64,000 nt of DNA from an uncultured Candidatus Saccharibacteria bacterium (lineage in GTDB: Bacteria; Patescibacteriota; Minisyncoccia; Phycocordibacterales; CAIZLB01), in contig CAZKAF010000001.1 of the NCBI GenBank assembly GCA_964550955.1, positions 7,993 to 71,992 on the forward strand. Reading direction: 5' to 3'. Position 1 is the stretch's first letter. Every line of letters begins with the position of its first letter. Of the stretch, positions 25,892-62,815 are shown piece by piece. Below the pieces are notes generated by a model, which made no database searches, was not told where the DNA came from, and was given only the letters and a program-made list of their open reading frames with translations. The translations under genes were made by a program, and so were the position numbers.

Positions 25892-28800
25892 ATGCGCCAG
25901 AAAAAGTATTTTTCACGGTTTAAGGAGCCGCTCGCGCCGCTCCCGAACCTAGTTGAAGGACAGATTGAATCTTATAAATGGTTACTCGACAAAGGATTGA
26001 AGGAAGTTTTCAGCGAATTTGTCTCTATTAAGGACTATTCGGACAAGAAGTTCGAATTGGACTTTACCGGATTTGAAATTGTCGCTCCTAAGTATGATGA
26101 ATTTCATGCAAAGGAAAACAAGATGAACTACGAAGGCGGTCTCAAGGTGATGGTCAAGCTCAAAAACAAGATTCTCGGTTCTGTCAAAGAACAGGAGGTT
26201 TTTATGGCTGACTTCCCGATGATGACGGATCACGGCACATTTATCATCAACGGCATCGAGCGACTCATCGTTCCGCAGATCATTCGATCTTACGGGGCGT
26301 TTTTCACGTCTCAGGAAGTCAAAGGCAAGAACTACTTCGGCGCGAAGATCATTCCTGCGCGAGGCGCATGGATTGAAATCGAAAGCGATGCCGACGGCGC
26401 GGTTTACGTGCGAATCGACAGAAAGCGAAAGTTCCCGGTAACTTCGCTTCTTCGAGCTTTCGGCGTTGAAACTGATACGGACATGAAGGAGCTCTTCAAA
26501 GATAGCCAGTACGGAAAGCAGTATATCGAAGCTACGCTCGCCAAGGATCATGCGCGAACCAAGGAAGAGGCGTACATCGAAATCCACAAGCGACTTCGAG
26601 ACGGAGACCTGGCAACGGCGGAAAACGCGCGGGATTTCTTCAATGCGCTCATGAGCGCTGAACGATATGACCTTTCAAAGGTAGGACGATTCAGATTCAA
26701 CCAGCGATTCGGCAAGGACATGGGTGAGAAGGCCCTCTCACAGATGACTCTTACTGTCGACGACTTGGCATCTACAATAAAGATGCTTATCGAGCTTAAC
26801 CACAACCCCCTTGCTATCAAGGACGACATCGACCATCTCGGTTCGAGGCGGGTTCGATTCGTGGGCGAGCTTCTCCAGCAGAAAATCCGAGTCGGCATGA
26901 CGCAGATCAAGCGAAACATTCAGAACCGAATGTCCACTATTGATACGGATGCGAATCTCCCGGTTCAATTCATTTCTCCTCGACCTCTCCAGGCCCGAAT
27001 CAAGGAATTCTTCACGACGAACCAATTGTCGCAATTCATGTCGCAGGAAAACATCCTTGCGGAAATCGAGCATCTTCGAAGAATCTCAGCTCTTGGTCAA
27101 GGCGGTCTTACGCGAGAACGAGCGGGCATCGAAGTTCGAGACGTGCACCAGTCGCATTACGGGCGAATCTGTCCGATTCATACTCCTGAAGGCCAGAACA
27201 TCGGCCTCGTGCTCCAGCTTGCAACATATGCTCGAGTCAACCATTTCGGCATGATCGAGACTCCGTATGCAAAAGTTAAGGACGGAAAAATCACTAAAGA
27301 AATCGTCTACTTGAACGCGCTGGAAGAAGCTGGTCATAAGATTGCCCACGCTGCCACTAAGTACAATGACAAGGGCGTTATCGAAGAAGATATCGTGGAA
27401 GTTCGAGTCGACGGCGAGCCGATTCTCATCAGCAAGGACGAAGTGGACTATATCGACGTCGCGCCGGAACAGGCATTCTCGATCTCAACATCGATGATTC
27501 CGTTCTTGAACCACGACGATGCCAACCGAGCGCTCATGGGTTCAAACATGCAGAAACAGGCGACTCCTTGCATCGTTCCTGAAGCGCCTTTGGTTGCGAC
27601 AGGCATCGAAGAGAAAGCTGCTGAAGATACGGGGCGAGTTATCCTTGCTCCTGAAGAGGGAACTGTTACATATGTAGATGCCAAGAAAATCGTGCTTAAG
27701 GGCGCGAAGAAGGAGCATGAATACAGGCTGGCGACATATAACCGAACGAACCAGTTCACGGCTTCGCATCAGCGACCGACTGTTTCTTTGAATCAGAAAG
27801 TTAAGCGAGGCGATGTGCTTGCTGACACTTCTACATCTGTAGATGGTCAAATGGCTCTTGGTCAGAACTGTCTCGTTGCCTTCATGGCATGGTCAGGCGC
27901 GAACTATGAAGATGCCATCATTCTTTCTGAAAGACTTGTTAAGGACTCCAAGTTCACGACGGTTCATATTGAAGAATTCATCATCAACGTTCGAGACACG
28001 AAGCTTGGTCCGGAAGTCACGACTCACGACATTCCAAACGTGGGCGAAAACCGGCTCAAGAATCTCGACGTGGACGGCATCATCCGAGTAGGCGCTGAAG
28101 TTCGACCTGGCGATATCATCGTAGGTAAAATTACTCCAAAGACTGAAACTCAGCTTACTCCGGAAGAACGACTCCTTCGATCAATCTTCGGTGAGAAATC
28201 ACGAGACGTGAAGGACACTTCAAAGCGACTTGAAAACGGAAAGAAAGGACGAGTTATCGGCGTTAAAATCTTCTCGCGAGAGAAAGGCGACAAGCTCGAC
28301 TCAGGAATCATCAAGCGAATCCACGTTGAGGTCGCGGTTCTTCGAAACATCTCAGTGGGCGACAAGCTTGCTGGACGACACGGAAACAAGGGTGTCATCT
28401 CGCGAATCCTTCCTGTTGAAGACATGCCATTCATGGAAGACGGAACTCCGGTTGACGTCATCCTGACTCCGCTCGGCGTTCCTTCTCGAATGAACCTCGG
28501 ACAGATTCTCGAGCTCCACCTCGGCCTTGCTGCCAAGACGCTCAACTATCAGGCGATCGTTCCTCCATTTGCGGGCGCGACTGTCGATGAGGTCAAGAAA
28601 GAGCTTGTTACGGCCGGATTCAACGAAAGCGGAAAGATGAAGCTCTTCGACGGGCGAACGGGCGAAAAGTTCGAGCAGGACGTCGCGGTCGGATACATGT
28701 ATATCCTCAAGCTTCACCACATGGTGGACGACAAGATTCACATGCGATCCATCGGTCCGTACTCTCTCATTACTCAGCAGCCGCTTGGAGGCAAGGCTCA

Positions 28801-29083
28801 GGGCGGAGGCCAGAGATTCGGAGAAATGGAAGTGTGGGCATTGGCTGGTTACGGCGCGGCTCATACGCTCCGGGAAATGCTCACAATCAAGTCGGACGAC
28901 ATCCAGGGACGATCGCAAGCCTTCGACTCCATCGTTAAGGGTCAGAAGCTGCTTGAGCCAAACGCTCCCGCGTCATTCAACGTGCTCCTTTCAAACTTGA
29001 GAGGACTCGGCATCGACGTGGAGCTCAGAGGGGAAGATGAAGAAGGTCGAATTATCGAAGCAACGGACATTCTCGAAGTCTAA
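25892..29083 (+). CDS. rpoB: DNA-directed RNA polymerase subunit beta (short, 1063 aa)
   Basis: LPNLVEGQIESYKWLL N-terminus, FGEMEVWALAGYGAAHTLREMLTIKSDD, NRLKN..., RHGNKGVISRILPVEDMPF and other canonical RpoB blocks. Confidence 0.95.
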   Translation: MRQKKYFSRFKEPLAPLPNLVEGQIESYKWLLDKGLKEVFSEFVSIKDYSDKKFELDFTGFEIVAPKYDEFHAKENKMNYEGGLKVMVKLKNKILGSVKEQEVFMADFPMMTDHGTFIINGIERLIVPQIIRSYGAFFTSQEVKGKNYFGAKIIPARGAWIEIESDADGAVYVRIDRKRKFPVTSLLRAFGVETDTDMKELFKDSQYGKQYIEATLAKDHARTKEEAYIEIHKRLRDGDLATAENARDFFNALMSAERYDLSKVGRFRFNQRFGKDMGEKALSQMTLTVDDLASTIKMLIELNHNPLAIKDDIDHLGSRRVRFVGELLQQKIRVGMTQIKRNIQNRMSTIDTDANLPVQFISPRPLQARIKEFFTTNQLSQFMSQENILAEIEHLRRISALGQGGLTRERAGIEVRDVHQSHYGRICPIHTPEGQNIGLVLQLATYARVNHFGMIETPYAKVKDGKITKEIVYLNALEEAGHKIAHAATKYNDKGVIEEDIVEVRVDGEPILISKDEVDYIDVAPEQAFSISTSMIPFLNHDDANRALMGSNMQKQATPCIVPEAPLVATGIEEKAAEDTGRVILAPEEGTVTYVDAKKIVLKGAKKEHEYRLATYNRTNQFTASHQRPTVSLNQKVKRGDVLADTSTSVDGQMALGQNCLVAFMAWSGANYEDAIILSERLVKDSKFTTVHIEEFIINVRDTKLGPEVTTHDIPNVGENRLKNLDVDGIIRVGAEVRPGDIIVGKITPKTETQLTPEERLLRSIFGEKSRDVKDTSKRLENGKKGRVIGVKIFSREKGDKLDSGIIKRIHVEVAVLRNISVGDKLAGRHGNKGVISRILPVEDMPFMEDGTPVDVILTPLGVPSRMNLGQILELHLGLAAKTLNYQAIVPPFAGATVDEVKKELVTAGFNESGKMKLFDGRTGEKFEQDVAVGYMYILKLHHMVDDKIHMRSIGPYSLITQQPLGGKAQGGGQRFGEMEVWALAGYGAAHTLREMLTIKSDDIQGRSQAFDSIVKGQKLLEPNAPASFNVLLSNLRGLGIDVELRGEDEEGRIIEATDILEV

Positions 29084-29125
29084 AGAAATAGTTTCAAATA
29101 ACTATTCAAATAAAACAAAGAATAT

Positions 29126-32100
29126 ATGACTACAAAAACCCCTATCGAAATAAACAACAAGAATCATTCAATCGACGACTTCAGTTCAGTCGTATTGAAG
29201 CTCGCGTCGCCTGACAGAATCCGAGAATGGTCTTACGGCGAGGTCACGAAGCCTGAGACGATGAACTATCGAACTCAGCGAAGCGAGAAGAACGGCCTCT
29301 TCGATGAAAAGATATTCGGTCCTGAAAAAGACTATGAATGCTATTGCGGAAAATACAAAGGCATCCGATACAAAGGCATTGTCTGCGAGAAATGCGGAGT
29401 CGAGCTTACGCGATCCATCGTTCGACGAGAACGAATGGGACATATCGAGCTTTCAGTTCCAGTGGGACATATCTGGTACCTTCGAACGCTTCCTTCGAGA
29501 ATCGCCACGATTCTCGGCATGAGCGCCGCTGATGTGGAAAAAGTAGTGTACTTCGCGGGATATCTCATCACGGCCGTTAACAAGGACGAAAAAGAAAAGC
29601 TCCTTAAGGAGCTCGACGGCGAATTCAAAAGCAAGATCAAATCTTTGAGCGATGAAAAGTCAAAAGATGCCCTGACTGAGCTCCTGATGGGTGCCAAGCG
29701 GGAGATCGAAAGCATCGAGATCGGAAAAGTTCTCGACGAAGTTGAATACCATAAGTATTCGCTCAAGTACGGCGTCTGCTTTACGGCGGGCATCGGCGCT
29801 GAAGCTGTCTTCAATATTTTCAAACAGCTCGACATGAAGAAGCTCCTTGTGCAGCTTGAAGAAAACCTCCAGAAGGTTTCTGCTGCTGAGCGAGAAAAGC
29901 TCATGCGACGAGTGAGTCTCGTCAAGTCCATGTCACGATCAGGCATTCGGCCTGAATGGATGTTCATCAGCGCCCTTCCGGTTATTCCGGCGGCGCTTCG
30001 ACCTATGGTCGCGCTTGAAGGCGGACGGCATGCGACATCTGACGTAAACGACCTATATCGACGAGTTATTAACCGAAACAATCGACTCAAGAAGCTCAAG
30101 GAGATCAATGCTCCCGATGTTATCCTTCGAAACGAGAAGCGAATCCTCCAGGAAGCAGTCGATGCCCTTATCGACAACTCAATCCGAAGCGGCAGCGCGG
30201 TATATGCAGGGCTCAATGCTGCTCAGCGACGACCTCTTAAGTCTCTTGCGGATAACCTCAAGGGCAAGCGAGGACTCTTCCGACAGAACCTCCTCGGCAA
30301 GCGAGTAGACTACTCCGGACGATCAGTTATCGTCGTGGGTCCTGACCTCAAGCTCAACCAGTGCGGTCTTCCAAAGCACATGGCACTTGAGCTCTTCCGA
30401 CCATTCGTTATCTCGGAACTTCTTAAGCGAGAAATGGCTTTCAACATTCGAGGCGCATCGCGACTTATCGATGACGGCATTCCCGAAGTTTGGGCCATTC
30501 TCGAACAGGTGATTCAGAACAAGCGAGTGCTCCTTAACCGAGCGCCTACGCTTCACCGACTCTCTATCCAGGCATTCAAGCCGGTTCTCATCGAAGGAAA
30601 TGCGATTCAGGTTCACCCTCTTGTATGTTCTCCATTCAACGCGGACTTCGACGGCGACACCATGGCCGTTCACGTTCCGCTTTCGGAAGAAGCTCAGAAA
30701 GAAGCCGAGATGATCATGGAATCTTCCAAGAACATCCTCAAGCCTGGTTCCGGAGACCCGACGGTCACGAACAAGATGCTCGACATCGTTCTCGGATCAT
30801 ACTGGATGACAAAGAACGTTGCCGGAGAAAAAGGCGAAGGAAAAGTCTTTGTCGGTCCGGACGAAGCCATCTCGGCTCAGACATACGATCTCGTCTCATA
30901 TCGAGCGCAGATCAAGGTGCGAGCGCCTATCGACGGCCCTCAGGCTGACAAGTACAAGGAATTCGCCGGAACAATCTTTGAAACGACAGTCGGGCGAATC
31001 CTCTTCAACAATCTTCTTCCTGACGACTATCCGTTCATCAATAAAGAAATCACGAAGGGCGTGATGATGGCCCTTGTCGACGACATGATTACGCATCGAG
31101 GCATCGAGAACGTTCCCGCGCTCATCGACAGCATCAAGACATTCGGATTCAAGTACGTGACGCAGTCGGGCGTAACGTGGAGCATCGACGACGTTAAGGT
31201 GCCGGAAGGCAAGACCGCGGTGATCGACACGGCTCAGGCCAAGTCAAACGAGGTCATCTCTCAGTACAACGAAGGTCTTCTTTCAAAGGAGGAAAAGACT
31301 CGAAAGAACGTCGAAATCTGGCAGGATGCCAAGGCTCAGGTTGAAAAGCTGGTAGACCAGAACCTCAGCAAGAACAGTCCGGTCTTCGACATGGTGAACT
31401 CGGGAGCCCGAGGTTCCCTCGGTAACCTTACGCAGATGGTAGGAATGAAAGGCCTCATCTCGAACGCTCAAGGAGAGACAATCGAGCTTCCTATCGTTTC
31501 ATCCTTCAAGGAAGGTCTTACTCCTATCGAATACTTCGTAACGACTCACGGTGCCCGAAAAGGTATGACGGACACGGCCCTCAACACGGCGCGAGCGGGT
31601 TACCTGACTCGACGATTGTTCGTGGTCGCGCAAAGCGTCATGGTCACTGAAGAAGATTGCGGAGCCAAAGACGGCGTCGCTATCCAGCGAGTCGGCGCAT
31701 CAGGCATTGCCACATCGCTTGTAAAGAGCGTGACTGGACGAGTGTTGTCTAAGGACATCGCGAATTCAAAAGGCGAGGTTCTCTTCAAGAGGGATCATCT
31801 CATCTCAAAGGATGACGCGGGTCTTCTCGAAAAGGAAGGCGTGACTGAAGTGACGGTACGATCGCCGCTCATGTGCAAGACAGAACAGGGAGTATGCGCC
31901 AAGTGCTACGGATATGACCTCGGACGAAACAAGCTCGTCGAAGTAGGCGAAGCGGTCGGTACGATCGCCGCGCAGGCGATTGGCGAGCCGGGCACGCAGC
32001 TTACGATGAGAACCTTCCATGCCGGAGGCGTGGCTACGGTAGGCGGAGACATCACGCACGGTCTTCCTCGAGTTGAAGAAATCTTCGACAACCGAACGCC

Positions 32101-32836
32101 GAAGAACCCTGCAATCATCGCCACTCATGACGGCGTCATCACTGAAGTGAAGGAGGTCAACAAGGAACGGGTCATCAAGATTCTTCCTGATGTTCCGACT
32201 AAGTCAAAGAAGGGCAGCGAGGTGGAATACACGTTCCACTATGCGCGAGTTCCGGTAGTGAAAGTCGGTCAGCATGTTTCCAAGGGAGACTTCCTGACAG
32301 ACGGCTCAGCCGATCTTGAAGAGCTCTTCGAGCTTGGCGGGCGAGAAAAGGCTCAGGAATACATCATCTCTGAAGCGAAGAAAATCTACGAGCTCCAGGG
32401 CGAAAACGTTTCTCGAAAGCACCTCGAAGTAGTCGTTCGGGAAATGTTCGGACGAGTGCGGGTCAAGGAGCCGGGCGATTCGCAGTTCGCAGCGGGCGAC
32501 TATGTGGAGAAATTCCAGTTCGACGAAGTCAACAGGGAGGTGAAGGCTCAGGGCGGCATTGAGGCAAAAGCGGAACCTGTAATCATGGGCATCGCCGAAG
32601 CGTCTCTCAACCGAAGAAGCTTCCTTTCCGCGGCGTCGTTCCAGCATACGAACCGAATGCTTATCTCGGCATCGCTCAAGGCCAACAAGGATCCGCTCTA
32701 CGGCATCATGGAAAACGTGATCATCGGACGACTGATTCCTGCCGGCACCGGATTCAAGGGCAGCGCCAAGCATCAGATGATCGAGGATTTCAAGGCTCGA
32801 ATTGTCGAGAACGAAGACTCCGAATCGGAAGCATAG
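29126..32836 (+). CDS. rpoC: DNA-directed RNA polymerase subunit beta'
   Basis: Zn-finger YECYCGKYKGIRYKGIVCEKCGVE, the catalytic NADFDGD motif and many further RpoC blocks. Confidence 0.95.
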   Translation: MTTKTPIEINNKNHSIDDFSSVVLKLASPDRIREWSYGEVTKPETMNYRTQRSEKNGLFDEKIFGPEKDYECYCGKYKGIRYKGIVCEKCGVELTRSIVRRERMGHIELSVPVGHIWYLRTLPSRIATILGMSAADVEKVVYFAGYLITAVNKDEKEKLLKELDGEFKSKIKSLSDEKSKDALTELLMGAKREIESIEIGKVLDEVEYHKYSLKYGVCFTAGIGAEAVFNIFKQLDMKKLLVQLEENLQKVSAAEREKLMRRVSLVKSMSRSGIRPEWMFISALPVIPAALRPMVALEGGRHATSDVNDLYRRVINRNNRLKKLKEINAPDVILRNEKRILQEAVDALIDNSIRSGSAVYAGLNAAQRRPLKSLADNLKGKRGLFRQNLLGKRVDYSGRSVIVVGPDLKLNQCGLPKHMALELFRPFVISELLKREMAFNIRGASRLIDDGIPEVWAILEQVIQNKRVLLNRAPTLHRLSIQAFKPVLIEGNAIQVHPLVCSPFNADFDGDTMAVHVPLSEEAQKEAEMIMESSKNILKPGSGDPTVTNKMLDIVLGSYWMTKNVAGEKGEGKVFVGPDEAISAQTYDLVSYRAQIKVRAPIDGPQADKYKEFAGTIFETTVGRILFNNLLPDDYPFINKEITKGVMMALVDDMITHRGIENVPALIDSIKTFGFKYVTQSGVTWSIDDVKVPEGKTAVIDTAQAKSNEVISQYNEGLLSKEEKTRKNVEIWQDAKAQVEKLVDQNLSKNSPVFDMVNSGARGSLGNLTQMVGMKGLISNAQGETIELPIVSSFKEGLTPIEYFVTTHGARKGMTDTALNTARAGYLTRRLFVVAQSVMVTEEDCGAKDGVAIQRVGASGIATSLVKSVTGRVLSKDIANSKGEVLFKRDHLISKDDAGLLEKEGVTEVTVRSPLMCKTEQGVCAKCYGYDLGRNKLVEVGEAVGTIAAQAIGEPGTQLTMRTFHAGGVATVGGDITHGLPRVEEIFDNRTPKNPAIIATHDGVITEVKEVNKERVIKILPDVPTKSKKGSEVEYTFHYARVPVVKVGQHVSKGDFLTDGSADLEELFELGGREKAQEYIISEAKKIYELQGENVSRKHLEVVVREMFGRVRVKEPGDSQFAAGDYVEKFQFDEVNREVKAQGGIEAKAEPVIMGIAEASLNRRSFLSAASFQHTNRMLISASLKANKDPLYGIMENVIIGRLIPAGTGFKGSAKHQMIEDFKARIVENEDSESEA

Positions 32837-33023
32837 CAGCTTTCGGGAGCCGGCATCGGACTGCGCGGCCCGATGCCGGAATTGCGCGCGGCGCGAGATG
32901 TCTCGACGTCGGCATGGTAGTAAGATTAAATATTAGCCTCTAATACTTTAAATCTGGCTGCCTTGTGTGGGCCTGTTCACTGGCGGACGGGTCCTCAGAA
33001 GGCAGCCAGATAACAAACTACGA

Positions 33024-34838
33024 ATGTCATCAGCAGCAGAACAAATCAAGGAGCGGCTGGGGATTGCCGAAGTGGTCGGCGCATATATAAAGCTGGAAAA
33101 GGCGGGGGCGAACTACAAGGCTCGCTGCCCTTTTCATAATGAAAAGACCCCGTCCTTCTTCATCTCGCCCGGGCGAAACTCGTACTACTGCTTCGGCTGC
33201 GGCGCGAAAGGGGATGCCTTCACCTTCGTCCAGGAATTCGAAAAAGTCGATTTTGTCGGCGCGCTGAAAATTCTGGCCGAAAAGGCCGGCATCGAGCTGC
33301 AGTCGATGCGAAACGAGAACAAGGGCGAAACCGACAGGCTTCGAAGCGTTCTCGAGATGTCGACGAAATATTACCAGCAGGAGCTCTCGCGTTCGGGCAA
33401 GGCGCTCGAATACTTGAAAAGCCGAGGCCTTGCCGACAAGACCATTTCGGATTGGAGAATCGGCTACGCGCCGAACGAATGGAGAAAGCTCAGCGAATTT
33501 CTCGCTTCCAAAAGGGTAAGCGATGCCGACATGGAAACGGTCGGCCTCATCAAGTGGCCCGAGGACCAGGCGAAGGGCAGAAGCCCGTACGATCGGTTCC
33601 GGGCGCGCATCATGTTCCCGCTGTTCGACGCGTCCTCGCGCGTCATCGGATACTCCGGAAGAATCTTCGGCGTGCCCGATGCTGACGGGCCGAAATACTT
33701 GAACAGTCCCGACACGGTCCTGTTCAACAAGTCGGAAACGCTGTACGGGTTCCATAAGGCGAAAGAGGGCGTCCGCGAATGGAGATATGCCATTCTGGTG
33801 GAAGGCCAGATGGACCTGCTCATGTGCCATCAGTCCGGATTCACGAACGCGGTCGCGACGTCCGGCACCTCGCTGACGCCCCAGCACCTTGAAAAATTGA
33901 AGAAAATATCAGATAATTTGATGTTAGTATACGATGCTGACAAAGCAGGTCTCAAAGCGACGCTTCGCGCGTGGACCGGCGCTCTGGCAATCGGTATGGA
34001 TGTCAAAGTAGCGGGACTTCCGACGGGCGAAGATCCCGCCTCGATTCTTTTGAAAGACAAAGAAGAGTTCAAGAAAGCCCTCAAAAATTCAAAACACATA
34101 ATCGAGTACTACCTTGATATCCTTGCAAAGGAATCTAAAAAAGAAGGCCGGTCTCCGGAAAAATTTAAAAAATCAATACAGGAAGAGCTCCTGCCGTACG
34201 TGGCAGTCATAGAAAGCGCCATAGCGCGTTCAGGTTTCATATCAAAGATAAGCCTTGCAACGGGCATTCGCGAGGACGATATCCGCGAGGAGGTTGAGAA
34301 AATCATGAAAAATATCAGGGCGAATCAGCCCGCTCAGCCGTCAGGTTCCGGACAGCCGGCATCGCCCGCGTCCGACGGATCAAGATCGTCAGCCGGCTCG
34401 TCAGGCTCGCAGGATCAGGGCGCCGAGCGAAGCGTCATCATGCGCGACCCGTCGATACGAAGGCTTGTCGGACTCGTCCAATGGCTGATTTCGAAGAAGG
34501 ACGAGGATACGGCCGGTGCCATCACCGAGCGAGTCGAGACGCTCCTGTCGGCGGACGAATTGGCGGACTTCAAGACGCTCGTCGGCCAGCCGAGGGAAGA
34601 GCTCATTTTCGAAGCCGAAGTGCTCTTTCAGGGAAGCTCGAAAATAGACAGGGAGATAGGGCACATGGTGGACGGGATAGAGGAGCGGATGCTGAAGGAA
34701 AAATTATCAAAAAAAATGTCGGAGCTTCACATGGCAGAAGGCAGGAAGGACAAGAAGAAGGCGGAAGAATTGATAGAGGCCTGCCAGAAGATTTCGCAGC
34801 AATTATCAGATTTAAATAAGAAGAGGGTAAATTATTAA
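33024..34838 (+). CDS. dnaG: DNA primase
   Basis: CHC2 zinc finger [30 protein letters not shown] and TOPRIM region [30 protein letters not shown]...LVYDADKAG. The ORF opens at 32967; ATG 33024 matches the canonical DnaG N-terminus. Confidence 0.9.
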
Positions 34839-34843
34839 AAAAC

Positions 34844-36217
34844 ATGAAAAATAAAAAACAAAAGGAAATGAAACATAAGAAAACAGCCAAGTCCGCGCCG
34901 AAGCCGGCGAAATCCGGCAAATCAGCGAAGGCTTCAAGGCCCGTCGCCAGAGCCAAGGCGCCTGCCAAGAGTCCGGCCAAAGCTTCGAAAGCCGCGGTCA
35001 GGCATGCGAAATCCCCGGCGAAGCCGGCTGCAAAAGCCCAGGCTCACAAAAATTCCAAAACTCCGGCGAAAGGCCAGAAGGCTCCCGAAAAGCACGTGAA
35101 GACGACCCTCACTCCTGCCGAGCCGAAGAAGAAGACGAAGGAAGAAATCGCCTATGACGCGAAGGCGAACGTCCTGCTCCTTCGGGGGAAAGACAGGGGC
35201 TTCGTGACGTACGACGAGATCCTCAAGGAATTCCCTCATATCGAGCTTGATGTCATGTTCCTCGATTACCTCTACGAGAAATTCTCTTCTGCCGGCATCG
35301 ACATTCTCGAAGGAGGAGGAATGCTCAACTTCAAGCAGGAAGAGGAGGAGATGCTCAAGAAGTACAGCATGAACAAGAGCGACTCGACCTACGACTCCAT
35401 CCAGATGTACCTCAAGGAAATCGGCCAGTATCCGCTCATCAATGCGCATGACGAGAAGGAGCTCGCCAAGCGAATCCAAGCCGGCGACATTGAGGCCAAG
35501 AACTTGCTTGCCAAGGCAAACCTTCGGCTTGTGGTTTCCATTGCCAAGAAATACGCGAACAGAAGCCCTGACCTCACGCTTCTTGACCTCATTCAGGAAG
35601 GAAACCTCGGCCTCTTCAAGGCGGTTGAAAAGTTCGACTGGTCCAAAGGCTTCAAGTTTTCAACGTATGCGACATGGTGGATCAGGCAGTCTATCACGAG
35701 AGCCCTTGCCGACCAGTCGCGAACGATTCGAGTTCCGGTGCATATGGTAGAAACTATCGCAAAATACAAGCAGGTGGTGCGACGGCTCTTCCAGGATCTC
35801 GGACGAGAGCCGCTTCCTGAGGAAATTGCCACCGAGATGGGCATCGAAGTGGACAAGATTTATACTATTGAAAAAATCGACCAGAATACCGTGTCGCTCG
35901 ACACGCCCGTGAACGACGATGAGGACAAGTCATCCGCATTCGGAGACTTCATCGCCGATGACAAGATCCTTTCTCCTGATCAGGAATCTTCGCGAAGAAT
36001 CCTGGCCGACCAGGTCCAGGAAATCCTCGGCGACCTTTCGGAGAAGGAGAGGGAAATCCTCGCGCTCCGGCACGGTCTCAACGACGGAATCCAGCATACG
36101 CTTGAGGAGGTAGGAAAGATGTTCGGCGTGACGCGAGAGCGAATCCGGCAGATTGAAGCCAAGGCTCATGAGAAAATCCGGCAGCATGAGAAGGTGAATC
36201 GGCTGAAGAACTACTAG
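34844..36217 (+). CDS. rpoD: Primary sigma-70 factor with a ~100-aa Lys/Ala/Pro-rich N-terminal extension.
   Basis: Region 2 [39 protein letters not shown], region 1.2 [11 protein letters not shown], regions 3/4 ...[13 protein letters not shown]...[21 protein letters not shown]-terminal [54 protein letters not shown]. Confidence 0.9.
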
Positions 36218-49540: not shown

Positions 49541-51031
<1,491 letters not shown>

Positions 51032-58072: not shown

Positions 58073-58143
58073 TGCGGGATCGTCTAATGGTAGGACTGCG
58101 GATTTTGGTTCCGCCTATCTAGGTTCGAGTCCTAGTCCCGCAG
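58073..58143 (+). tRNA. tRNA-Gln(TTG)
   Basis: Acceptor TGCGGGA/TCCCGCA (a U1:A72 pair as in bacterial tRNA-Gln), D-arm GTCT-AATGGTA-GGAC, anticodon arm GCGGA-TTTTGGT-TCCGC (anticodon TTG), T-arm CTAGG-TTCGAGT-CCTAG, discriminator G, no encoded CCA. Confidence 0.8.
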
Positions 58144-58230
58144 CAACTTAGTTTTTCGTATCTAGCGACCTAGAGGGGTCAAAATACGTTAATTCCTAAA
58201 AACCCTTGTTTGTGGGATAATTGAGTCATT

Positions 58231-59454
58231 ATGAATCAGGCTCAAAAGAAAGAAAAATTCTATTTTTATAAAGGGAATATTAATGTTCTCGATAAGTTAG
58301 AAGATAAAACTAAAGAAAACATTCTCGCTCAGATTCAAAAAGAAATCTTACAGATTTTTGATGTAAAGAATTTATCTTTTTTACTTGGATCGGGCTGCTC
58401 ATCCTTTGTCAAAGAATCCGAGCAGATCGGGATTCCTACCATGGAACCTTTAGCAAAATTATTTTATGCGACACTTAATGCAGGCGATAAGGATGTTTTA
58501 AGGGATATTGTAAAGATAGATATCTCAATTGCTCCTTTTAATAACAATCTGGAAAGTTTTTTAGAAGTTTTGTTTAGCTTCAATTTTATTTATGACGTCC
58601 AGGGTGATAAAGCGCTTAAGCAAAAAATCCAGTCTTTGATTGATAAAACTAAAGAATTCATTCTTGAGAAATGTATTAACAAAGCAAATATAGCTCATAC
58701 TGATGTTATAGATTTATACAAGTTGTTTTATAAAAAACTTGTATATAGAAATAATAGCTTGTCAAAAGTTAATATTTTTACGACTAACTATGATTTGTAT
58801 TCAGAAAAGGCTTTGGACCAGCTCAGTATTTTATATAGTAATGGTTTTTCAGGAAATATAGAGAGATATTTCAATCCCACTACTTTTAACTATGCTTTCG
58901 CCGAACAGATGGAATTGAGTTCTAATAAATGGAATGTGATAGATAATTTTGTTTACCTATACAAACTTCATGGATCAGTAAATTGGGTAGAGACGGACAC
59001 AAAAGGAAAAATATTTAATATTCAAGAAATACAGGATCCAACAGAGAAAATCGAAGCATCGATGATTTACCCGACTCCTATGAAGCAGACTTCTAGTTTT
59101 GGTTCCCCGTACTCTGACTTATTTAGGGAATTTCAAAAAAAGTTAATGCAAGAAAAAAATATACTTGTAACAGCGGGGTACAGTTTTAGTGATCAACACG
59201 TTAATAATTTGATCTATCAAGCTTTAACAATCCCCACATTTCGTATTGTTATATTTCAAGATCCTGCAAAAGAAAGTATCAAAAGACTTCTAGATCTCAA
59301 TGATCCTCGTATATGGATTATTGGAGGGGAAATTGATTCAGAAAATATCCATTACTTTAGCTACATTGTTAATAACTTGTTACCTGATATTCGTCAGCAA
59401 AAAATTGAAAGTAGCATAGAGCAAGCTATAAAGAGTCTTATAGATAAAAAATAA
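58231..59454 (+). CDS. SIR2-family (SIR2_2-like) NAD+-dependent/NADase domain protein
   Basis: Rossmann Gly motif LLGSGCS, IFTTNYD and LYKLHGSVNW match the SIR2_2 defense-associated family signatures (TTNYD; HG with catalytic His). Confidence 0.75.
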   Translation: MNQAQKKEKFYFYKGNINVLDKLEDKTKENILAQIQKEILQIFDVKNLSFLLGSGCSSFVKESEQIGIPTMEPLAKLFYATLNAGDKDVLRDIVKIDISIAPFNNNLESFLEVLFSFNFIYDVQGDKALKQKIQSLIDKTKEFILEKCINKANIAHTDVIDLYKLFYKKLVYRNNSLSKVNIFTTNYDLYSEKALDQLSILYSNGFSGNIERYFNPTTFNYAFAEQMELSSNKWNVIDNFVYLYKLHGSVNWVETDTKGKIFNIQEIQDPTEKIEASMIYPTPMKQTSSFGSPYSDLFREFQKKLMQEKNILVTAGYSFSDQHVNNLIYQALTIPTFRIVIFQDPAKESIKRLLDLNDPRIWIIGGEIDSENIHYFSYIVNNLLPDIRQQKIESSIEQAIKSLIDKK

Positions 59455-59459
59455 CTCAA

Positions 59460-61487
59460 ATGATAATTGATGATAAAAAACGAGTTATTGGAAAAATAAT
59501 CTCTATAAACTCAGATAGGTTTTCAGTTGAACTTTTGAGTGGTACAAGAAACTTTAATGCAAATGGTTATGATGATATACATTATTTTGCTCAGATAAAC
59601 AGCTATGTTATTGTCCCTTATCAAAATTATTATATTGTGGCTGAAGTTGTAAGTGTGAGGGAAAAGGATGAAAAAACTCCAGAAGATATAAGGGAACAAG
59701 AACTAAATAAAAGTCATTCGATTAAATATCTTGATGTATTACCAATAGGTAGGATTTCCGAAGATAAGTTTGATTTTGGCGTATCTGTTTACCCTACATT
59801 ATACAGTGATGTTTTGTACATAAAAGATAGTGAACTAGACATTATATTTGATGTAAGAAATTATGAAGCTAATAAGTGTAATGGATGTAACTTGAATACG
59901 TGTGTTATACCAGAACACAAAACTCTAAAATATAAAAACAAAACCGCGATGCTTGCTTTGGAGATTGGAAGGTCAGCAATATTTCCAGACTACAAGGTTA
60001 AAATAAGTATCGATAAGTTTTTTGGTAGCCACTCAGCTGTATTGGGAAATACCGGAAGTGGTAAGTCTTGCACTATTTCATCCATGCTTCAGACATTGTT
60101 TAAGAAGAAAGATTTCTCTTCTCTAGGGGCAACCTTTTTAATATTTGATGTGAATGGTGAATACAAGAGCGCTTTTGAAGGATTACAAAATGCTGAAATT
60201 AAAATAAAAAATCTTAGCATTGAAGGTAAAGAAGGCTATGAGGAATTTAAGTTGCCACACCATTTTTTTAATTTAGAAGAATGGGAAATACTTTTGCAAG
60301 CAAGCGAAAAGACACAGAGACCAGTTTTAAGATCCGCCCTAGGGATAGCTACTCTATTTAGCAAAGAGGATGGTCAAAGTATCATAAAAACAAAGAACCA
60401 TATTCTTGCTACATGTATTACGTTGATAATGAGAGATGAGACTAGTAGTCCTTCGAAAAAAGATAGAATCATTTCAATTTTAAGAAAATTTAAGACAGAA
60501 GAAATTAAATTAACTAAGAAGTTTAGCGAAACACCGATTTCTTATGATAAGGGTGCAAAGACTAAGGAGGCGACAATCGAGAATAGTTTGTATGTTCATT
60601 TCGGAGAAATCATAGGTACTGATGAGCTGCATGATTATCTTGAGAGTAAGGACACAAACGGGGATTCAATATTTTTTAGGGATGATTTTGAGATGCCTAG
60701 TTATGACAAAGAAGCAGTTTTCAATTTTAATGAAATAGAAAACGCCCTAGAGCTTGCCCTGCTTTATGAAGAGGCACATGGTAATAAGCATATTAGAGAT
60801 TATTGCTCGTCACTTCTTACAAGATTTAAAAGTATAAAGGAAAGAAGTGATTTTAATTTTATTAAGGAGAAAGCCACTCTATCAAAAGAAAAGTATTTAG
60901 AAGATTTGTTGGGAATCAGTAAAAGTAAAAAGACTTCACAAGTAATTATTCTCGATTTGAACTCAGTCGAGGACGAGCTAATTGAGATTGTTTCAACTGT
61001 GGTAACAAGAATAATCTTTGATAAATTGAAAAGTTTAAAAAATAGAAATATTTTCCCAGTGAATCTTATCCTAGAAGAAGCCCATCGATATATATCAAAT
61101 GAGCCTCAGCGAAATTTTCTTAAAGAAAATCGAGTCTTTGATAGGGTTGCAAAAGAGGGAAGGAAGTATGGTCTATTCTTTTTGATATCTTCTCAGCGGC
61201 CTAGCGAATTATCTCGAACAGTTTTGTCTCAGTGTAATAACTTTATAGTTCATCGTATTCAAAACCCTGATGACTTGTCTCATATTAGACAGATTACACC
61301 TCATATCTCTGAGACTACATTGAGAAAGTTACCTTCAATACCTACACAGCATGCATTAATATTTGGGGGAGCTGTAAATATTCCGGCCTTATTTAAGGTC
61401 AATAATGCTGATCCATTGCCAAATAGTGATAACAATAAAGTAAGTGAGAATTGGTTTATAGCCAAAAACCAAGAAATTAAGTTTTAG
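59460..61487 (+). CDS. HerA-like (FtsK/HerA superfamily) ATPase
   Basis: Walker A HSAVLGNTGSGKSCT, Walker B VNLILEEAHRYI, an N-terminal HAS-barrel-like region and ISSQRPSEL (arginine finger region). 675 aa and 5 nt downstream of the SIR2 gene. Confidence 0.8.
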   Translation: MIIDDKKRVIGKIISINSDRFSVELLSGTRNFNANGYDDIHYFAQINSYVIVPYQNYYIVAEVVSVREKDEKTPEDIREQELNKSHSIKYLDVLPIGRISEDKFDFGVSVYPTLYSDVLYIKDSELDIIFDVRNYEANKCNGCNLNTCVIPEHKTLKYKNKTAMLALEIGRSAIFPDYKVKISIDKFFGSHSAVLGNTGSGKSCTISSMLQTLFKKKDFSSLGATFLIFDVNGEYKSAFEGLQNAEIKIKNLSIEGKEGYEEFKLPHHFFNLEEWEILLQASEKTQRPVLRSALGIATLFSKEDGQSIIKTKNHILATCITLIMRDETSSPSKKDRIISILRKFKTEEIKLTKKFSETPISYDKGAKTKEATIENSLYVHFGEIIGTDELHDYLESKDTNGDSIFFRDDFEMPSYDKEAVFNFNEIENALELALLYEEAHGNKHIRDYCSSLLTRFKSIKERSDFNFIKEKATLSKEKYLEDLLGISKSKKTSQVIILDLNSVEDELIEIVSTVVTRIIFDKLKSLKNRNIFPVNLILEEAHRYISNEPQRNFLKENRVFDRVAKEGRKYGLFFLISSQRPSELSRTVLSQCNNFIVHRIQNPDDLSHIRQITPHISETTLRKLPSIPTQHALIFGGAVNIPALFKVNNADPLPNSDNNKVSENWFIAKNQEIKF

Positions 61488-61492
61488 TTGAT

Positions 61493-62815
61493 TTATTCTA
61501 AAATTACTTTTTTGTGTATTAAAATCAACTTACTCTTGAACGATTGCATGAGTTCTCGCTTCTCCTCAACGGTTCCTTCTTTAAGTAAGTATTTTGCATA
61601 AGCTCTAACGTCAATCTTACTTTGCTTGTCTTCCTGATCTCGGGTGAGTCCTAGCACTTTATTTCTGAAGTTATTGAACCTACCCATTTCCAGCTCGAGC
61701 TTCTGCCGCACTCCGATCTTGTCCAGATCAATCTTCTCAATGATTTCGATGAGCTGCGTAATTAATTGTTGCTCGGGCAGGTAAGTGTTCTTGCAGTATT
61801 TGTCATAGAAGCGAGTGCAGCTGTAGTAGATATGTTTTCTTTGCGTGCCGTCGATAAGGCCTTTGAATTTCTCTTGCGCACAGACTCCTGAGTTGCAGAG
61901 TCCGCACTTCATCAATCTCGTGAATGCGAATTCCTTTCTAGTCGGTCCCTTAGGTTTGTTCATGTCCAGTTTCTCCTGAACCTTTTTGAATAGCTCTTGG
62001 CTGATGATCGGCTCATGCTGGCCTACAAACCATTTGCCGCTTTTCCTGGGATATTCAAGAAGTCCGCAGTAGAGGGGGTTCCTGAGAACTGTGAATATAT
62101 TTCCAAGTGAGAATGGCTTATTCCCTCTGGTCTTGAATTTGAGGTCTTCCTTCATCCATCTGTACAGATCCCGTCCGCTCCATTTCTCGTATGCGACTTT
62201 CTCGAACATGATTTTGATCGCATGGGCTCTCTGGGGATCCTGAATGATATGGCATTTCTTCGTCCTGTCCGGATGGTTCAGATATCCGGTAGGGGCGACG
62301 GATGGCCAGAGCCCCATCTCGATTCTTGTACGAAGCCCTCGCTTAACGTTGATGCTCTTGTTGTCGTTCTCAAGCTTTGCTTGTGAGCCGAGGATCATCA
62401 GCAAGAATTTCTCATTCGGATTATTCGTGAACTTCTGGCTATATGTCCTGATTTCGATTAGCTTCTTCTGGTCGAGAAGATCTACGAGTGCACCGAGATC
62501 TCCAGCGTTACGCGCAAGGCGATCAGGATGCCATACGAGTATTCCTGTGAACTTTCCCATTCGGATATCGGCAAGAAGCTGGTTGTAGACAGGGCGCTGC
62601 CCGCAGTCTTTTGCCGAATGGGATTCTCTGTAGATTTGCCCGACTTCCAGCCCGTTCTTCTGGGCAAGCTCCAGCATTTCCTTCACTTGGGAATCGATGG
62701 ACAAAGCCTGCTTTTCTTCCGCTTCGCTCGACTTGCGGGCATACAGGGCGTATTTGGTGGTTATTAATGGCTCGACCTCGTCAGGAGTCACTTGTAGCGG
62801 GTTTTGTATTTGCAC
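61493..62815 (-). CDS. Large serine recombinase (resolvase/integrase family)
   Basis: N-terminal resolvase domain YALYARKSSEAEEKQALSIDSQ (catalytic Ser), VWHPDRLAR, a recombinase domain and a C-terminal zinc ribbon (CGLC...SCTRFYDKYC) plus coiled coil. Confidence 0.85.
   Translation of the reverse strand: MQIQNPLQVTPDEVEPLITTKYALYARKSSEAEEKQALSIDSQVKEMLELAQKNGLEVGQIYRESHSAKDCGQRPVYNQLLADIRMGKFTGILVWHPDRLARNAGDLGALVDLLDQKKLIEIRTYSQKFTNNPNEKFLLMILGSQAKLENDNKSINVKRGLRTRIEMGLWPSVAPTGYLNHPDRTKKCHIIQDPQRAHAIKIMFEKVAYEKWSGRDLYRWMKEDLKFKTRGNKPFSLGNIFTVLRNPLYCGLLEYPRKSGKWFVGQHEPIISQELFKKVQEKLDMNKPKGPTRKEFAFTRLMKCGLCNSGVCAQEKFKGLIDGTQRKHIYYSCTRFYDKYCKNTYLPEQQLITQLIEIIEKIDLDKIGVRQKLELEMGRFNNFRNKVLGLTRDQEDKQSKIDVRAYAKYLLKEGTVEEKRELMQSFKSKLILIHKKVILE

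What the first reader, a model, noticed from the sequence alone, without database searches (positions are those of the whole stretch)
34844..35150. Histone-H1-like Lys/Ala/Pro-rich N-terminal tail on the primary sigma factor
About 100 residues of KxAK/PAK repeats ([49 protein letters not shown]...) precede region 1.2 of RpoD. Such tails resemble the DNA-binding tails of H1, Hc1 and HupB. A very similar tail is on enolase in the same window, suggesting lineage-wide tagging of housekeeping proteins with basic low-complexity extensions for nucleoid association or phase separation.
Basis: seen in the sequence. Interest (0 to 1): 0.55.

Follow-up and report, generated by a model that had tools for sequence, protein, structure and literature searches.

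The report
Lysine-rich disordered tail on sigma factor
The main transcription-initiation factor of this tiny uncultured (Parcubacteria) bacterium carries a real, about 95-residue, strongly positively charged floppy tail that every sampled relative also has, most likely a non-specific DNA-binding add-on like those known in actinobacteria; it is not part of a genome-wide tagging of housekeeping proteins.

Summary
ORF 34844-36217 (+) is a complete primary sigma factor. Its first ~95-100 residues are 29% Lys, 22% Ala and 11% Pro, with net charge +28, and the ORF starts 5 nt after dnaG. AlphaFold predicts residues 4-94 to be disordered.

One correction: the tail precedes a folded region 1.1 (residues 99-155), not region 1.2.

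The tail is a trait of the whole Parcubacteria group. All 318 sigma sequences examined carry one, 34-152 residues long and net +13 to +63. Sequence is not conserved (identity equals that of shuffled tails), but net charge is buffered. The reading frame stays open in all 79 species loci, so the tail is translated.

Enolase in the window has a similar ~50-residue tail. That tail is confined to a subclade, is independent of the sigma tail, and is not a DNA copy of it. Only about 4 of roughly 1,000 other sampled Parcubacteria genes have such tracts, so "lineage-wide tagging" is not supported.

Known counterparts are the basic N-terminal block of M. tuberculosis SigA and the lysine repeats of Streptomyces HrdB, TopA, Ku and HupB/HupS. 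The likely role, inferred rather than shown, is an electrostatic nucleic-acid tether that modulates initiation. I rate it a new variant of a known kind, of moderate interest.

The parts
34844..35137 (+). Polycationic disordered N-terminal tail of the primary sigma factor (aa 1-98): K/A/P-rich with degenerate xPAK units, net charge about +28
   Evidence: Composition. AF2 gives pLDDT <50 and no secondary structure for aa 4-94. No Pfam or PDB match for the tail alone. Conserved as a feature in all 318 related sigma sequences.
35099..35146 (+). Short conserved junction motif [16 protein letters not shown] (aa 86-101) between the tail and region 1.1. Close relatives have L(T/V)P..P.KK(S/T)K.E.
   Evidence: Seen in the N-terminal sequences of close homologues. 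pLDDT rises here. It is not conserved in more distant Parcubacteria.
35138..35308 (+). Folded sigma region 1.1 domain (aa 99-155)
   Evidence: Pfam PF03979, E = 2e-9. AF2 pLDDT 87-92 with helices 99-118, 123-129 and 137-149. Aligns to the solved sigma 1.1 domains 5MWW, 7L7B and 2K6X and to E. coli sigma70 residues 9-58.
35393..35488 (+). Sigma region 1.2 (aa 184-215)
   Evidence: Pfam PF00140, E = 5e-15.
35507..36184 (+). Sigma regions 2, 3 and 4 (aa 222-447)
   Evidence: Pfam PF04542, PF04539 and PF04545.
34844..36217 (+). Whole rpoD/sigA ORF (457 aa). A public annotation of the identical protein starts at the second ATG, 34868 (449 aa).
   Evidence: P0001, 100% identity, 449 aa. The first ATG is favoured because the homologue P0002 keeps MKNKKQK but has no second Met.
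32967..34838 (+). dnaG (primase), ending 5 nt before rpoD. The dnaG-rpoD pair is conserved in related loci.
   Evidence: Pfam. The upstream gene is a dnaG-sized ORF in most of 77 loci, with a median gap of 16 nt.
50852..51004 (-). K/A/P-rich N-terminal tail of enolase (aa 1-51, net +13)
   Evidence: There is no in-frame ATG/GTG/TTG between the start codon and the enolase core. The MASKPxKK start is conserved in relatives.
49541..50851 (-). Enolase catalytic body (Enolase_N + Enolase_C)
   Evidence: Pfam E = 8e-55 and 1e-124.

Best explanation
SHOWN: The region encodes a genuine, translated, intrinsically disordered polycationic N-terminal extension of the housekeeping sigma factor. It is attached to an otherwise canonical sigma made of a folded region 1.1 followed by regions 1.2, 2, 3 and 4. 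It is an ancestral trait of the Parcubacteria (Paceibacteria) group. Selection keeps bulk positive charge (about +25 to +33) but not sequence or length.

INFERRED: The tail has no matching acidic block in sigma, beta or beta-prime, and chemically identical Lys-rich tails bind DNA in HupB/Hlp, Ku, TopA, DdbA and histone H1. It therefore most likely acts as a flexible, sequence-independent electrostatic tether to nucleic acid, chiefly DNA. Such a tether would keep sigma or holoenzyme on the nucleoid and could modulate promoter search, open-complex stability or recycling. It would also reverse the net negative charge that region 1.1 gives the sigma N-terminus in E. coli.

The enolase tail is a separate, younger acquisition of the same type of appendage in one subclade.
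For: Real and translated:
- The frame is open across the tail in all 79 species loci, while the other two frames carry about 5 stops each (77 of 79 loci).
- Many tails have no internal ATG, and the ORF abuts dnaG (median gap 16 nt).

Universal in the group:
- 119 close homologues have tails of 43-137 aa, net +24 +/- 4.
- 79 GTDB species loci named Taylor-, Zambryski-, Yonath-, Nomura-, Campbell- and Vogelbacteria have net +27 +/- 6.
- 113 of 120 distant Parcubacteria sigmas (about 50% core identity) could be scored automatically: tails 57-152 aa, net +33 +/- 8. The other 7 printed sequences are also Lys-rich at the N-terminus.

Selection on charge, not sequence:
- Tail pairwise identity is 0.36, against 0.33 for shuffled tails and 0.74 for the core.
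- Charge density falls with tail length (r = -0.71).

Disorder and architecture:
- AF2 predicts a disordered tail and a confident region 1.1 fold.
- The region 1.1 match to solved structures begins at their residues 7-12, so the tail is an add-on.

No internal acidic partner:
- The rest of sigma is net about -10, region 1.1 plus linker is -7, and the most acidic 30-aa windows in beta and beta-prime are only -9 and -7.

Analogy:
- M. tuberculosis SigA residues 1-102 are net +20 and K/R/A/P/S/T-rich (sequence verified against PDB 7KIF_F).
- The full 205-aa N-terminal IDR of SigA raises steady-state transcription about 100-fold (PMC11888270).
- Streptomyces HrdB carries lysine repeats (verified against 8K60_F). 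The literature lists them with TopA, Ku and HupS as H1-like DNA-binding repeats (PMC7398561).
- Ku PAKKA repeats modulate DNA binding (PMC3553676). The H1-like domain of DdbA binds and condenses DNA (PMC3643593).
Against: - There is no direct functional data for any Parcubacteria protein.
- In M. tuberculosis, deleting the basic block (delta42, delta92, delta132) did not change promoter binding by SPR, in vitro transcription or complementation. Only removal of the acidic residues 132-179 did (PMC10011835).
- Removing the Ku tail increased DNA affinity, so Lys-rich tails do not simply add affinity.
- Enolase, which is not a DNA-binding protein, carries the same kind of tail. The partner could therefore be RNA, membrane or something else.
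- Other DNA enzymes in the window lack tails.
Confidence: 0.55

Rival explanations
1. The tail is a regulator directed at RNAP or at sigma itself, not a DNA binder. It would tune where region 1.1 sits, or sigma-core association and recycling. Alternatively it could serve as a hub for lysine acetylation or Ser/Thr phosphorylation.
For: - In mycobacteria the N-terminal IDR changes Vmax, and the direction of CarD/RbpA effects, without changing apparent promoter affinity.
- Phosphorylation in that IDR modulates activity (abstract of PMC10011835).
- The tail is directly fused to region 1.1.
- A short conserved motif sits at the junction in close relatives.
Against: - No acidic surface of matching size was found in sigma, beta or beta-prime.
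- Conservation is of bulk charge only, with no positional motif across the group. That fits a polyanion partner better than a specific docking site.
Confidence: 0.2
2. One reading: Lys/Ala/Pro tails are a lineage-wide address label that puts housekeeping proteins on the nucleoid or into condensates.
For: - Two unrelated housekeeping proteins in one 64-kb window carry similar tails.
- A few other Parcubacteria proteins have C-terminal Lys-rich tails: two treble-clef zinc-finger/RGG proteins and one protein of unknown family.
Against: - Only 2 of 53 window genes have such a tail.
- Only 4 of about 905 non-sigma genes in 80 rpoD loci and 0 of 88 in enolase loci have one. That is no more than the 6 of 704 in unrelated bacteria.
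- The enolase tail is missing in genomes that keep the sigma tail.
- The two tails are unrelated beyond composition.
- Sampling is limited to neighbourhoods of two genes, so a modest set of tagged proteins elsewhere is not excluded.
Confidence: 0.1
3. The tail is a tolerated low-complexity expansion with little protein-level function. One possibility is an A-rich 5' coding ramp that helps initiation on leaders without a Shine-Dalgarno sequence, which then drifted in length.
For: - The sequence evolves as fast as a shuffled sequence.
- Leaders upstream of rpoD are AT-rich and show no obvious SD.
- The spacer residues follow genomic G+C: V/I/N content against GC gives rho = -0.58.
- The M. tuberculosis basic block is dispensable in the laboratory.
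Against: - The tail was never lost in 318 sequences spanning about 50% core divergence.
- The minimum is 34 residues and +13 net charge.
- Net charge is buffered against length.
- A ramp would need only a few codons.
Confidence: 0.1
4. Start-codon artefact: translation really starts downstream of the tail, for example at the in-frame GTG at codon 85, and the tail is untranslated leader.
For: - An in-frame GTG exists at codon 85.
- One NCBI record for a Lloydbacteria RpoD is annotated without its tail, at 360 aa against 454 aa in other sources.
Against: - The open frame with Lys-rich translation is conserved in all loci, while the other frames are full of stops.
- Many orthologues have no alternative start before region 1.1, and there is no space between dnaG and the ORF.
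- The MKNKKQK-type N-termini are conserved among close relatives.
Confidence: 0.02

Closest known systems
Mycobacterium tuberculosis SigA N-terminal extension (sigmaA_N, residues 1-205/225)
   Same: - It is on the primary sigma factor, at the extreme N-terminus.
- It is predicted to be disordered.
- Its first ~100 residues are basic and K/R/A/P/S/T-rich: net +20, against +28 here.
- It is known to affect transcription output.
   Different: - In M. tuberculosis the basic block is followed by a -47 acidic IDR, and there is no region 1.1 fold. Here the tail is followed by a folded region 1.1, and the whole N-terminal region stays net positive.
- The M. tuberculosis block uses more Arg, Ser and Thr.
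- The M. tuberculosis basic block is dispensable in tested conditions.
- There is no sequence homology.
Streptomyces HrdB lysine repeats (AKKTT/AKKAA)
   Same: These are Lys/Ala-rich, H1-like low-complexity repeats in the N-terminal part of a primary sigma factor that also has a region 1.1-like domain. They have already been noted in the literature as "lysine repeats" shared with TopA, Ku and HupS.
   Different: - In HrdB the repeats lie between region 1.1 and region 1.2 and are followed by an acidic stretch. Here they lie N-terminal to region 1.1.
- HrdB has clear tandem pentapeptides. Here the units are only degenerate xPAK.
Actinobacterial/Deinococcus Lys-rich low-complexity tails on DNA-binding proteins (HupB/Hlp/MDP1, HupS, Ku PAKKA repeats, TopA C-terminal lysine repeats, DdbA)
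   Same: - The same K/A/P chemistry, disorder, rapid evolution and terminal position.
- They are proposed to have evolved repeatedly to modulate DNA-binding proteins.
   Different: - The host proteins and the phylum differ.
- DNA binding has been shown experimentally for those tails, not for this one.
Histone H1 C-terminal domain / chlamydial Hc1
   Same: Composition (Lys, Ala, Pro, Ser/Thr), a length of about 100 residues, and S/T-P-x-K-like units (SPAK, TPAK).
   Different: - The tail has no winged-helix globular domain and no Pfam match, so it is not homologous.
- It is attached to a sigma factor rather than being a free chromatin protein.
E. coli sigma70 region 1.1
   Same: A homologous folded domain is present here at aa 99-155.
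   Different: E. coli residues 1-95 are net -19 and start 8 residues before the domain. Here about 95 extra residues with +28 charge precede it, and the domain plus linker is only -7.

Membership tests
Group 1 (primary) sigma-70 family | Regions 1.2, 2, 3 and 4 are present in order | tested here: met
   Pfam PF00140, PF04542, PF04539 and PF04545, all above their gathering scores.
Group 1 (primary) sigma-70 family | Region 1.1 domain at the N-terminal side | tested here: met
   PF03979 at 37.6 bits against a cut-off of 22.5. Confident AF2 fold at aa 99-155. Aligns to the solved region 1.1 domains 5MWW, 7L7B and 2K6X.
Group 1 (primary) sigma-70 family | Housekeeping context (dnaG-rpoD operon arrangement) | tested here: met
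   dnaG ends 5 nt upstream. The same pairing occurs in most related loci and in L081 (rpoC-dnaG-rpoD) and L082 (dnaG-rpoD).
Linker histone H1 | Winged-helix globular domain (Pfam linker_histone) | tested here: not met
   No such hit for the whole protein or for the tail at E <= 1.
Linker histone H1 | Lys/Ala/Pro-rich disordered tail of about 100 residues | tested here: met
   K 29%, A 22%, P 11%. AF2 predicts disorder. The H1 values used for comparison come from general knowledge and were not recomputed here.
Linker histone H1 | S/T-P-K-K DNA-binding motifs | tested here: inconclusive
   The tail has SPAK twice, TPAK, KPAK and APAK, but no SPKK (read from the sequence).
Bacterial H1-like proteins (chlamydial Hc1 and similar) | Sequence match to the family profile | tested here: not met
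   The tail alone hits no Pfam family at E <= 1 and no PDB sequence at E <= 10.
Lysine-repeat low-complexity tails of bacterial DNA-binding proteins (a compositional class, not a homologous family) | Terminal, Lys-rich, degenerate repeats, fast-evolving, on a DNA-binding protein | tested here: met
   The class is as described in PMC3553676 and PMC7398561.
Lysine-repeat low-complexity tails of bacterial DNA-binding proteins (a compositional class, not a homologous family) | The tail itself binds DNA or alters the DNA transactions of its host protein | not testable with these tools
   This needs EMSA and transcription assays with and without the tail.
Mycobacterial sigmaA_N intrinsically disordered extension | Disordered N-terminal extension of the primary sigma | tested here: met
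   AF2 pLDDT <50 for aa 4-94.
Mycobacterial sigmaA_N intrinsically disordered extension | A basic block followed by a long acidic block, with no region 1.1 fold | tested here: not met
   Here the basic block is followed by a folded region 1.1 of only -7 net charge. In M. tuberculosis residues 103-225 are net -47.
Enolase (second tailed protein) | Enolase_N and Enolase_C domains | tested here: met
   E = 8e-55 and 1e-124. The domain starts at residue 52, after the tail.

The most novel reading that the evidence does not exclude
In Parcubacteria the housekeeping sigma factor doubles as a nucleoid-resident, H1-like polycation. Its +25 to +33 tail would keep sigma or RNAP permanently condensed on the small chromosome, possibly forming DNA-protein co-condensates. 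A few other proteins (enolase in one subclade, and the zinc-finger/RGG proteins) would have acquired the same "address" and so co-localise there. This would amount to a minimal chromatin-tethered organisation of core metabolism and transcription in ultra-small cells.
Probability: 0.12. Interest if true: 0.7.

Novelty: new variant of a known kind. Interest (0 to 1): 0.4.

Why it matters
Parcubacteria are a very large, uncultured, reduced-genome group whose transcription machinery has not been studied biochemically. A polycationic tail that is universal, charge-conserved and fused in front of a canonical region 1.1 reverses the usual acidic character of the sigma N-terminus. This suggests that their RNAP finds or holds DNA differently from the E. 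coli paradigm.

It also adds a second, independent phylum-level case to the actinobacterial sigma tails, whose function is still debated. That makes the general question, what a basic IDR on a primary sigma does, approachable by comparison.

On the practical side, gene callers sometimes clip this tail (a Lloydbacteria record at 360 aa against 454 aa), so annotations and structural models of these sigmas may be wrong at the N-terminus. The enolase tail is a small extra puzzle, because enolase has no known need to bind DNA.

Tried and rejected
- **Homology of the tail.** Searching the tail alone against PDB sequences and Pfam at E <= 1 found nothing. "H1-like" is therefore compositional only.
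- **Tandem repeats.** TRF found no real tandem array, so I rejected a recent microsatellite-type expansion.
- **Shared origin of the two tails.** I tested whether the enolase tail is a copy of the sigma tail. DNA and protein local scores are within the range of shuffles (z = 0.6 and 1.2), so I rejected this.
- **Internal acidic partner.** I looked for a compensating acidic block in sigma, beta, beta-prime and DnaG and found none.
- **Alternative starts.** I considered the second ATG (codon 9), which is possible and trivial, and the GTG at codon 85, which I rejected on comparative grounds.
- **Extending the proteome sample along the same genome.** One look-up added about 8 kb with no tailed genes. 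Two look-ups found no record.
- **Taxonomy of the 50%-cluster sigma representatives.** Cluster names were almost all missing, and the context look-ups gave synteny but no names. A profile search showed the distant tailed sigmas are still Parcubacteria/Patescibacteria. I could not establish whether other CPR classes share the trait.
- **Metagenome scan with enolase.** It returned mostly non-Parcubacteria enolases at 57-62% identity. These were useful only as a background rate.
- **Literature.** Searches for CPR/Patescibacteria sigma tails and for enolase Lys-rich extensions found nothing relevant.
- **Structure prediction.** It succeeded later.
Full report
**What is at the coordinates**

ORF 34844..36217 (+) encodes 457 aa. 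It begins with ATG 5 nt after the TAA stop of dnaG (32967..34838). Pfam finds a complete primary sigma factor:
- region 1.1 at aa 109-159
- region 1.2 at aa 184-215
- region 2 at aa 222-294
- region 3 at aa 303-380
- region 4 at aa 395-447

Residues 1-100 contain 29 Lys, 22 Ala, 11 Pro, 14 Ser+Thr, 4 Glu and no Asp, giving net charge +28.

This is far outside what the rest of the window's proteins show. P(>=29 Lys in 100) is 4e-11, and the maximum elsewhere is 18. A six-frame scan of the whole window finds only this tract and one other, at the enolase N-terminus.
- The tail precedes region 1.1, not region 1.2.
- It is a compositional low-complexity tract with degenerate xPAK units rather than a true repeat array.

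**Organism**

The closest proteins are named Candidatus Paceibacterota, Pacebacteria, Taylorbacteria or Parcubacteria. Related genome loci come from Taylor-, Zambryski-, Yonath-, Nomura-, Campbell- and Vogelbacteria. These belong to the Parcubacteria group of the Patescibacteria/CPR. An identical sigma (P0001) lies on a 696-kb contig and is annotated from the second ATG, 34868.

**Is the tail translated?**

Yes, as far as sequence can show.
- In 79 species-level loci the sigma frame is open through the tail. The two other frames of the same DNA carry about 5 stops each, with at least one stop in 77 of 79 loci.
- Many orthologues have no other in-frame ATG before region 1.1.
- The ORF typically starts within a few nucleotides of a dnaG-sized upstream gene (median gap 16 nt).
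- Close relatives conserve the extreme N-terminus (MKNKKQK...) even where the second Met of the window protein is absent.
- The in-frame GTG at codon 85 cannot be excluded for this one gene from its own sequence. The comparative evidence makes it very unlikely.

One caveat applies. Tail lengths from my ORF calls use the first in-frame start and so are upper bounds. Independent gene calls in the protein database give the same picture.

**Structure**

AlphaFold2, run on an 82-sequence alignment, gives pLDDT <50 and no secondary structure for residues 4-94. It gives a confident (87-92) small helical domain at residues 99-155.

That domain aligns to solved region 1.1 structures: B. subtilis 5MWW, C. 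difficile 7L7B and T. maritima 2K6X. A weaker match (E about 0.2) covers E. coli sigma70 residues 9-58. In all of these the domain begins 7-12 residues from the native N-terminus. The tail is therefore an add-on to a canonical region 1.1.

**Distribution and mode of selection**

Every sigma examined has a basic tail.

| Set | Number | Tail length (aa) | Net charge |
|---|---|---|---|
| Close homologues | 119 | 43-137 | +24 +/- 4 |
| Species loci | 79 | 34-145 | +27 +/- 6 |
| Distant Parcubacteria (about 50% core identity) | 120 (113 scored) | 57-152 | +33 +/- 8 |

In the distant set, the 7 sequences that could not be scored automatically are also visibly Lys-rich at the N-terminus.

Further points:
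- Tails align no better than shuffled tails (identity 0.36 against 0.33), while cores are 74% identical.
- Charge density falls as length rises (r = -0.71), so net charge is buffered.
- Lys is the constant. The spacer residues vary, and V/I/N content falls with G+C (rho = -0.58).
- The window's tail is among the five richest in Ala+Pro. The "H1 look" is thus a local flavour of a more general poly-Lys design.
- Among 150 diverse 50%-identity sigma representatives, about one in six has a strongly basic N-terminal window. Those that could be named are Parcubacteria.

**The enolase tail and the "tagging" idea**

Enolase (49541..51004, minus strand) has a 51-residue K/A/P tail of net charge +13 before Enolase_N. 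No alternative start lies between the ATG and the core, so this tail is also real.

It behaves differently from the sigma tail:
- It is long in the nearest relatives (conserved MASKPxKK start), shortens with distance, and is absent (MH...) in many Parcubacteria.
- The two tails share nothing beyond composition.

Such tails are rare elsewhere:

| Sample | Genes with a Lys-rich tract |
|---|---|
| Window | 2 of 53 |
| Non-sigma genes in 80 rpoD loci | 4 of about 905 |
| Loci around Parcubacteria-like enolases | 0 of 88 |
| Extra 8 kb of this genome | 0 |
| Unrelated bacterial loci (mostly ribosomal protein S13) | 6 of 704 |

The DNA enzymes next door (RpoB, RpoC, DnaG, a UvrD/PD-(D/E)XK helicase-nuclease and a pol III clamp-loader subunit) have no tails.

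The lineage-wide tagging interpretation is therefore not supported. The sampling covers only neighbourhoods of two genes, so a modest set of tagged proteins elsewhere cannot be excluded.

**How it most likely works**

What is shown: the tail is a conserved, disordered polycation with no matching acidic block in sigma (rest of the protein about -10), in region 1.1 plus linker (-7), or in beta and beta-prime (most acidic 30-aa windows -9 and -7).

What is inferred: its partner is an external polyanion, most plausibly DNA. It would act as a flexible, sequence-independent tether that affects how sigma or holoenzyme finds, holds or recycles on promoters.

The inference rests on analogy with Lys-rich tails that have been shown to bind DNA:
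- Ku PAKKA repeats and Hlp (PMC3553676)
- TopA lysine repeats, HupS and HupB (PMC7398561)
- the H1-like domain of DdbA (PMC3643593)

It also rests on the mycobacterial SigA N-terminal IDR. [quoted passage not shown]

The charge comparison is as follows. E. coli sigma70 residues 1-95 are net -19. M. tuberculosis SigA residues 1-102 are +20, followed by -47. The window sigma is +28, followed by -7.

Against a simple "more DNA affinity" reading:
- Deleting only the basic block of M. tuberculosis SigA (up to delta132) had no detectable effect on promoter binding, in vitro transcription or complementation (PMC10011835).
- Truncating Ku raised its DNA affinity.
- Enolase is not a DNA-binding protein.

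I therefore keep an RNAP-directed or PTM-hub role as the main rival, and a near-neutral low-complexity expansion as a minor one.

**Comparison with what is known**

By membership, the protein is a Group 1 sigma; all defining regions were tested and met. It is not a member of the H1 or Hc1 families: it has no globular domain and no profile match.

The tail belongs to the compositional class of bacterial "lysine repeats". That class has already been noted on a primary sigma factor, Streptomyces HrdB (sequence verified), and is present in M. tuberculosis SigA.

Three things are new here:
- The lineage: I found no paper on CPR sigma tails.
- The universality across a very large group.
- The architecture: a polycation directly N-terminal to a folded region 1.1, with no acidic counter-block. 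HrdB places the repeats between regions 1.1 and 1.2. M. tuberculosis has a basic-acidic diblock and no region 1.1 fold.

**Verdict**

The feature is real and conserved, and it has been described only partially elsewhere. I rate it a new variant of a known kind with moderate interest (0.4). The most novel reading still open is sigma as a nucleoid-resident H1-like polycation with a small club of co-addressed proteins. I give that reading about a 12% chance.

Noticed in passing
window 58073-62815: tRNA-Gln (58073-58144) is followed by a SIR2_2-domain protein (58231-59454), a HerA/DUF87 ATPase (59460-61487) and a large serine recombinase (61493-62815, minus strand). This looks like a small island integrated at the tRNA and carrying a SIR2-HerA anti-phage pair. 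The SIR2 and HerA proteins are not on record in the contig index, although the sigma factor and a gene from the window's left end are.
   Followed up: partly
L023 11138-11584; L057 19316-19984: These are small Parcubacteria proteins with N-terminal RGG/GGDR repeats, a treble-clef zinc finger (PF23477) and a C-terminal Lys-rich tail. One lies immediately downstream of rpoD. They are likely nucleic-acid-binding proteins of unknown role.
   Followed up: partly
L019 16151-16648: A 165-aa protein with no Pfam match has a C-terminal K/A/P tail (PKKPAAKMAVKPKVAAAKKAPAKKTAA). It is the only other clearly "KAP" tail in the 80 rpoD loci.
   Followed up: no
protein P0391 (NCBI OGZ11819.1) versus P0241/P0392: A Lloydbacteria RpoD is annotated in NCBI as 360 aa without its basic tail. 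Other sources call the same gene at 454 aa. The exact window protein is likewise annotated from the second ATG (449 aa). Gene callers are inconsistent at these N-termini.
   Followed up: partly
window 50852-50872 (enolase aa 45-51) and homologues: A short motif, PK(N/G)(A/L)LP, is conserved between the enolase tail and the enolase core in tailed homologues, and the start MASKPxKK is conserved too. This hints at more than bulk charge in that tail.
   Followed up: no
window 34290-34440 (DnaG aa ~442-490): DnaG has a Ser/Gly/Pro/Gln-rich, uncharged low-complexity linker ([33 protein letters not shown]) between the catalytic core and the C-terminal helicase-binding part. It is a different kind of disordered segment from the Lys-rich tails.
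   Followed up: no
window 25892-36217: The gene order is rpoB-rpoC-dnaG-rpoD on one strand. The rpoC-dnaG-rpoD arrangement recurs in another tailed-sigma locus (L081), so it may be a conserved Parcubacteria transcription/replication cluster.
   Followed up: partly
L082 3001-4641 (P0357): A 546-aa primary sigma from a different, unnamed lineage also starts with a K/A/P/V-rich tract (MAKVNPKKSPPQKKAKSVAKAPVKKVVAKKVAPKPAAKKP). Its neighbouring enolase (425 aa) has no tail. Basic sigma N-termini therefore exist outside the group studied here.
   Followed up: partly
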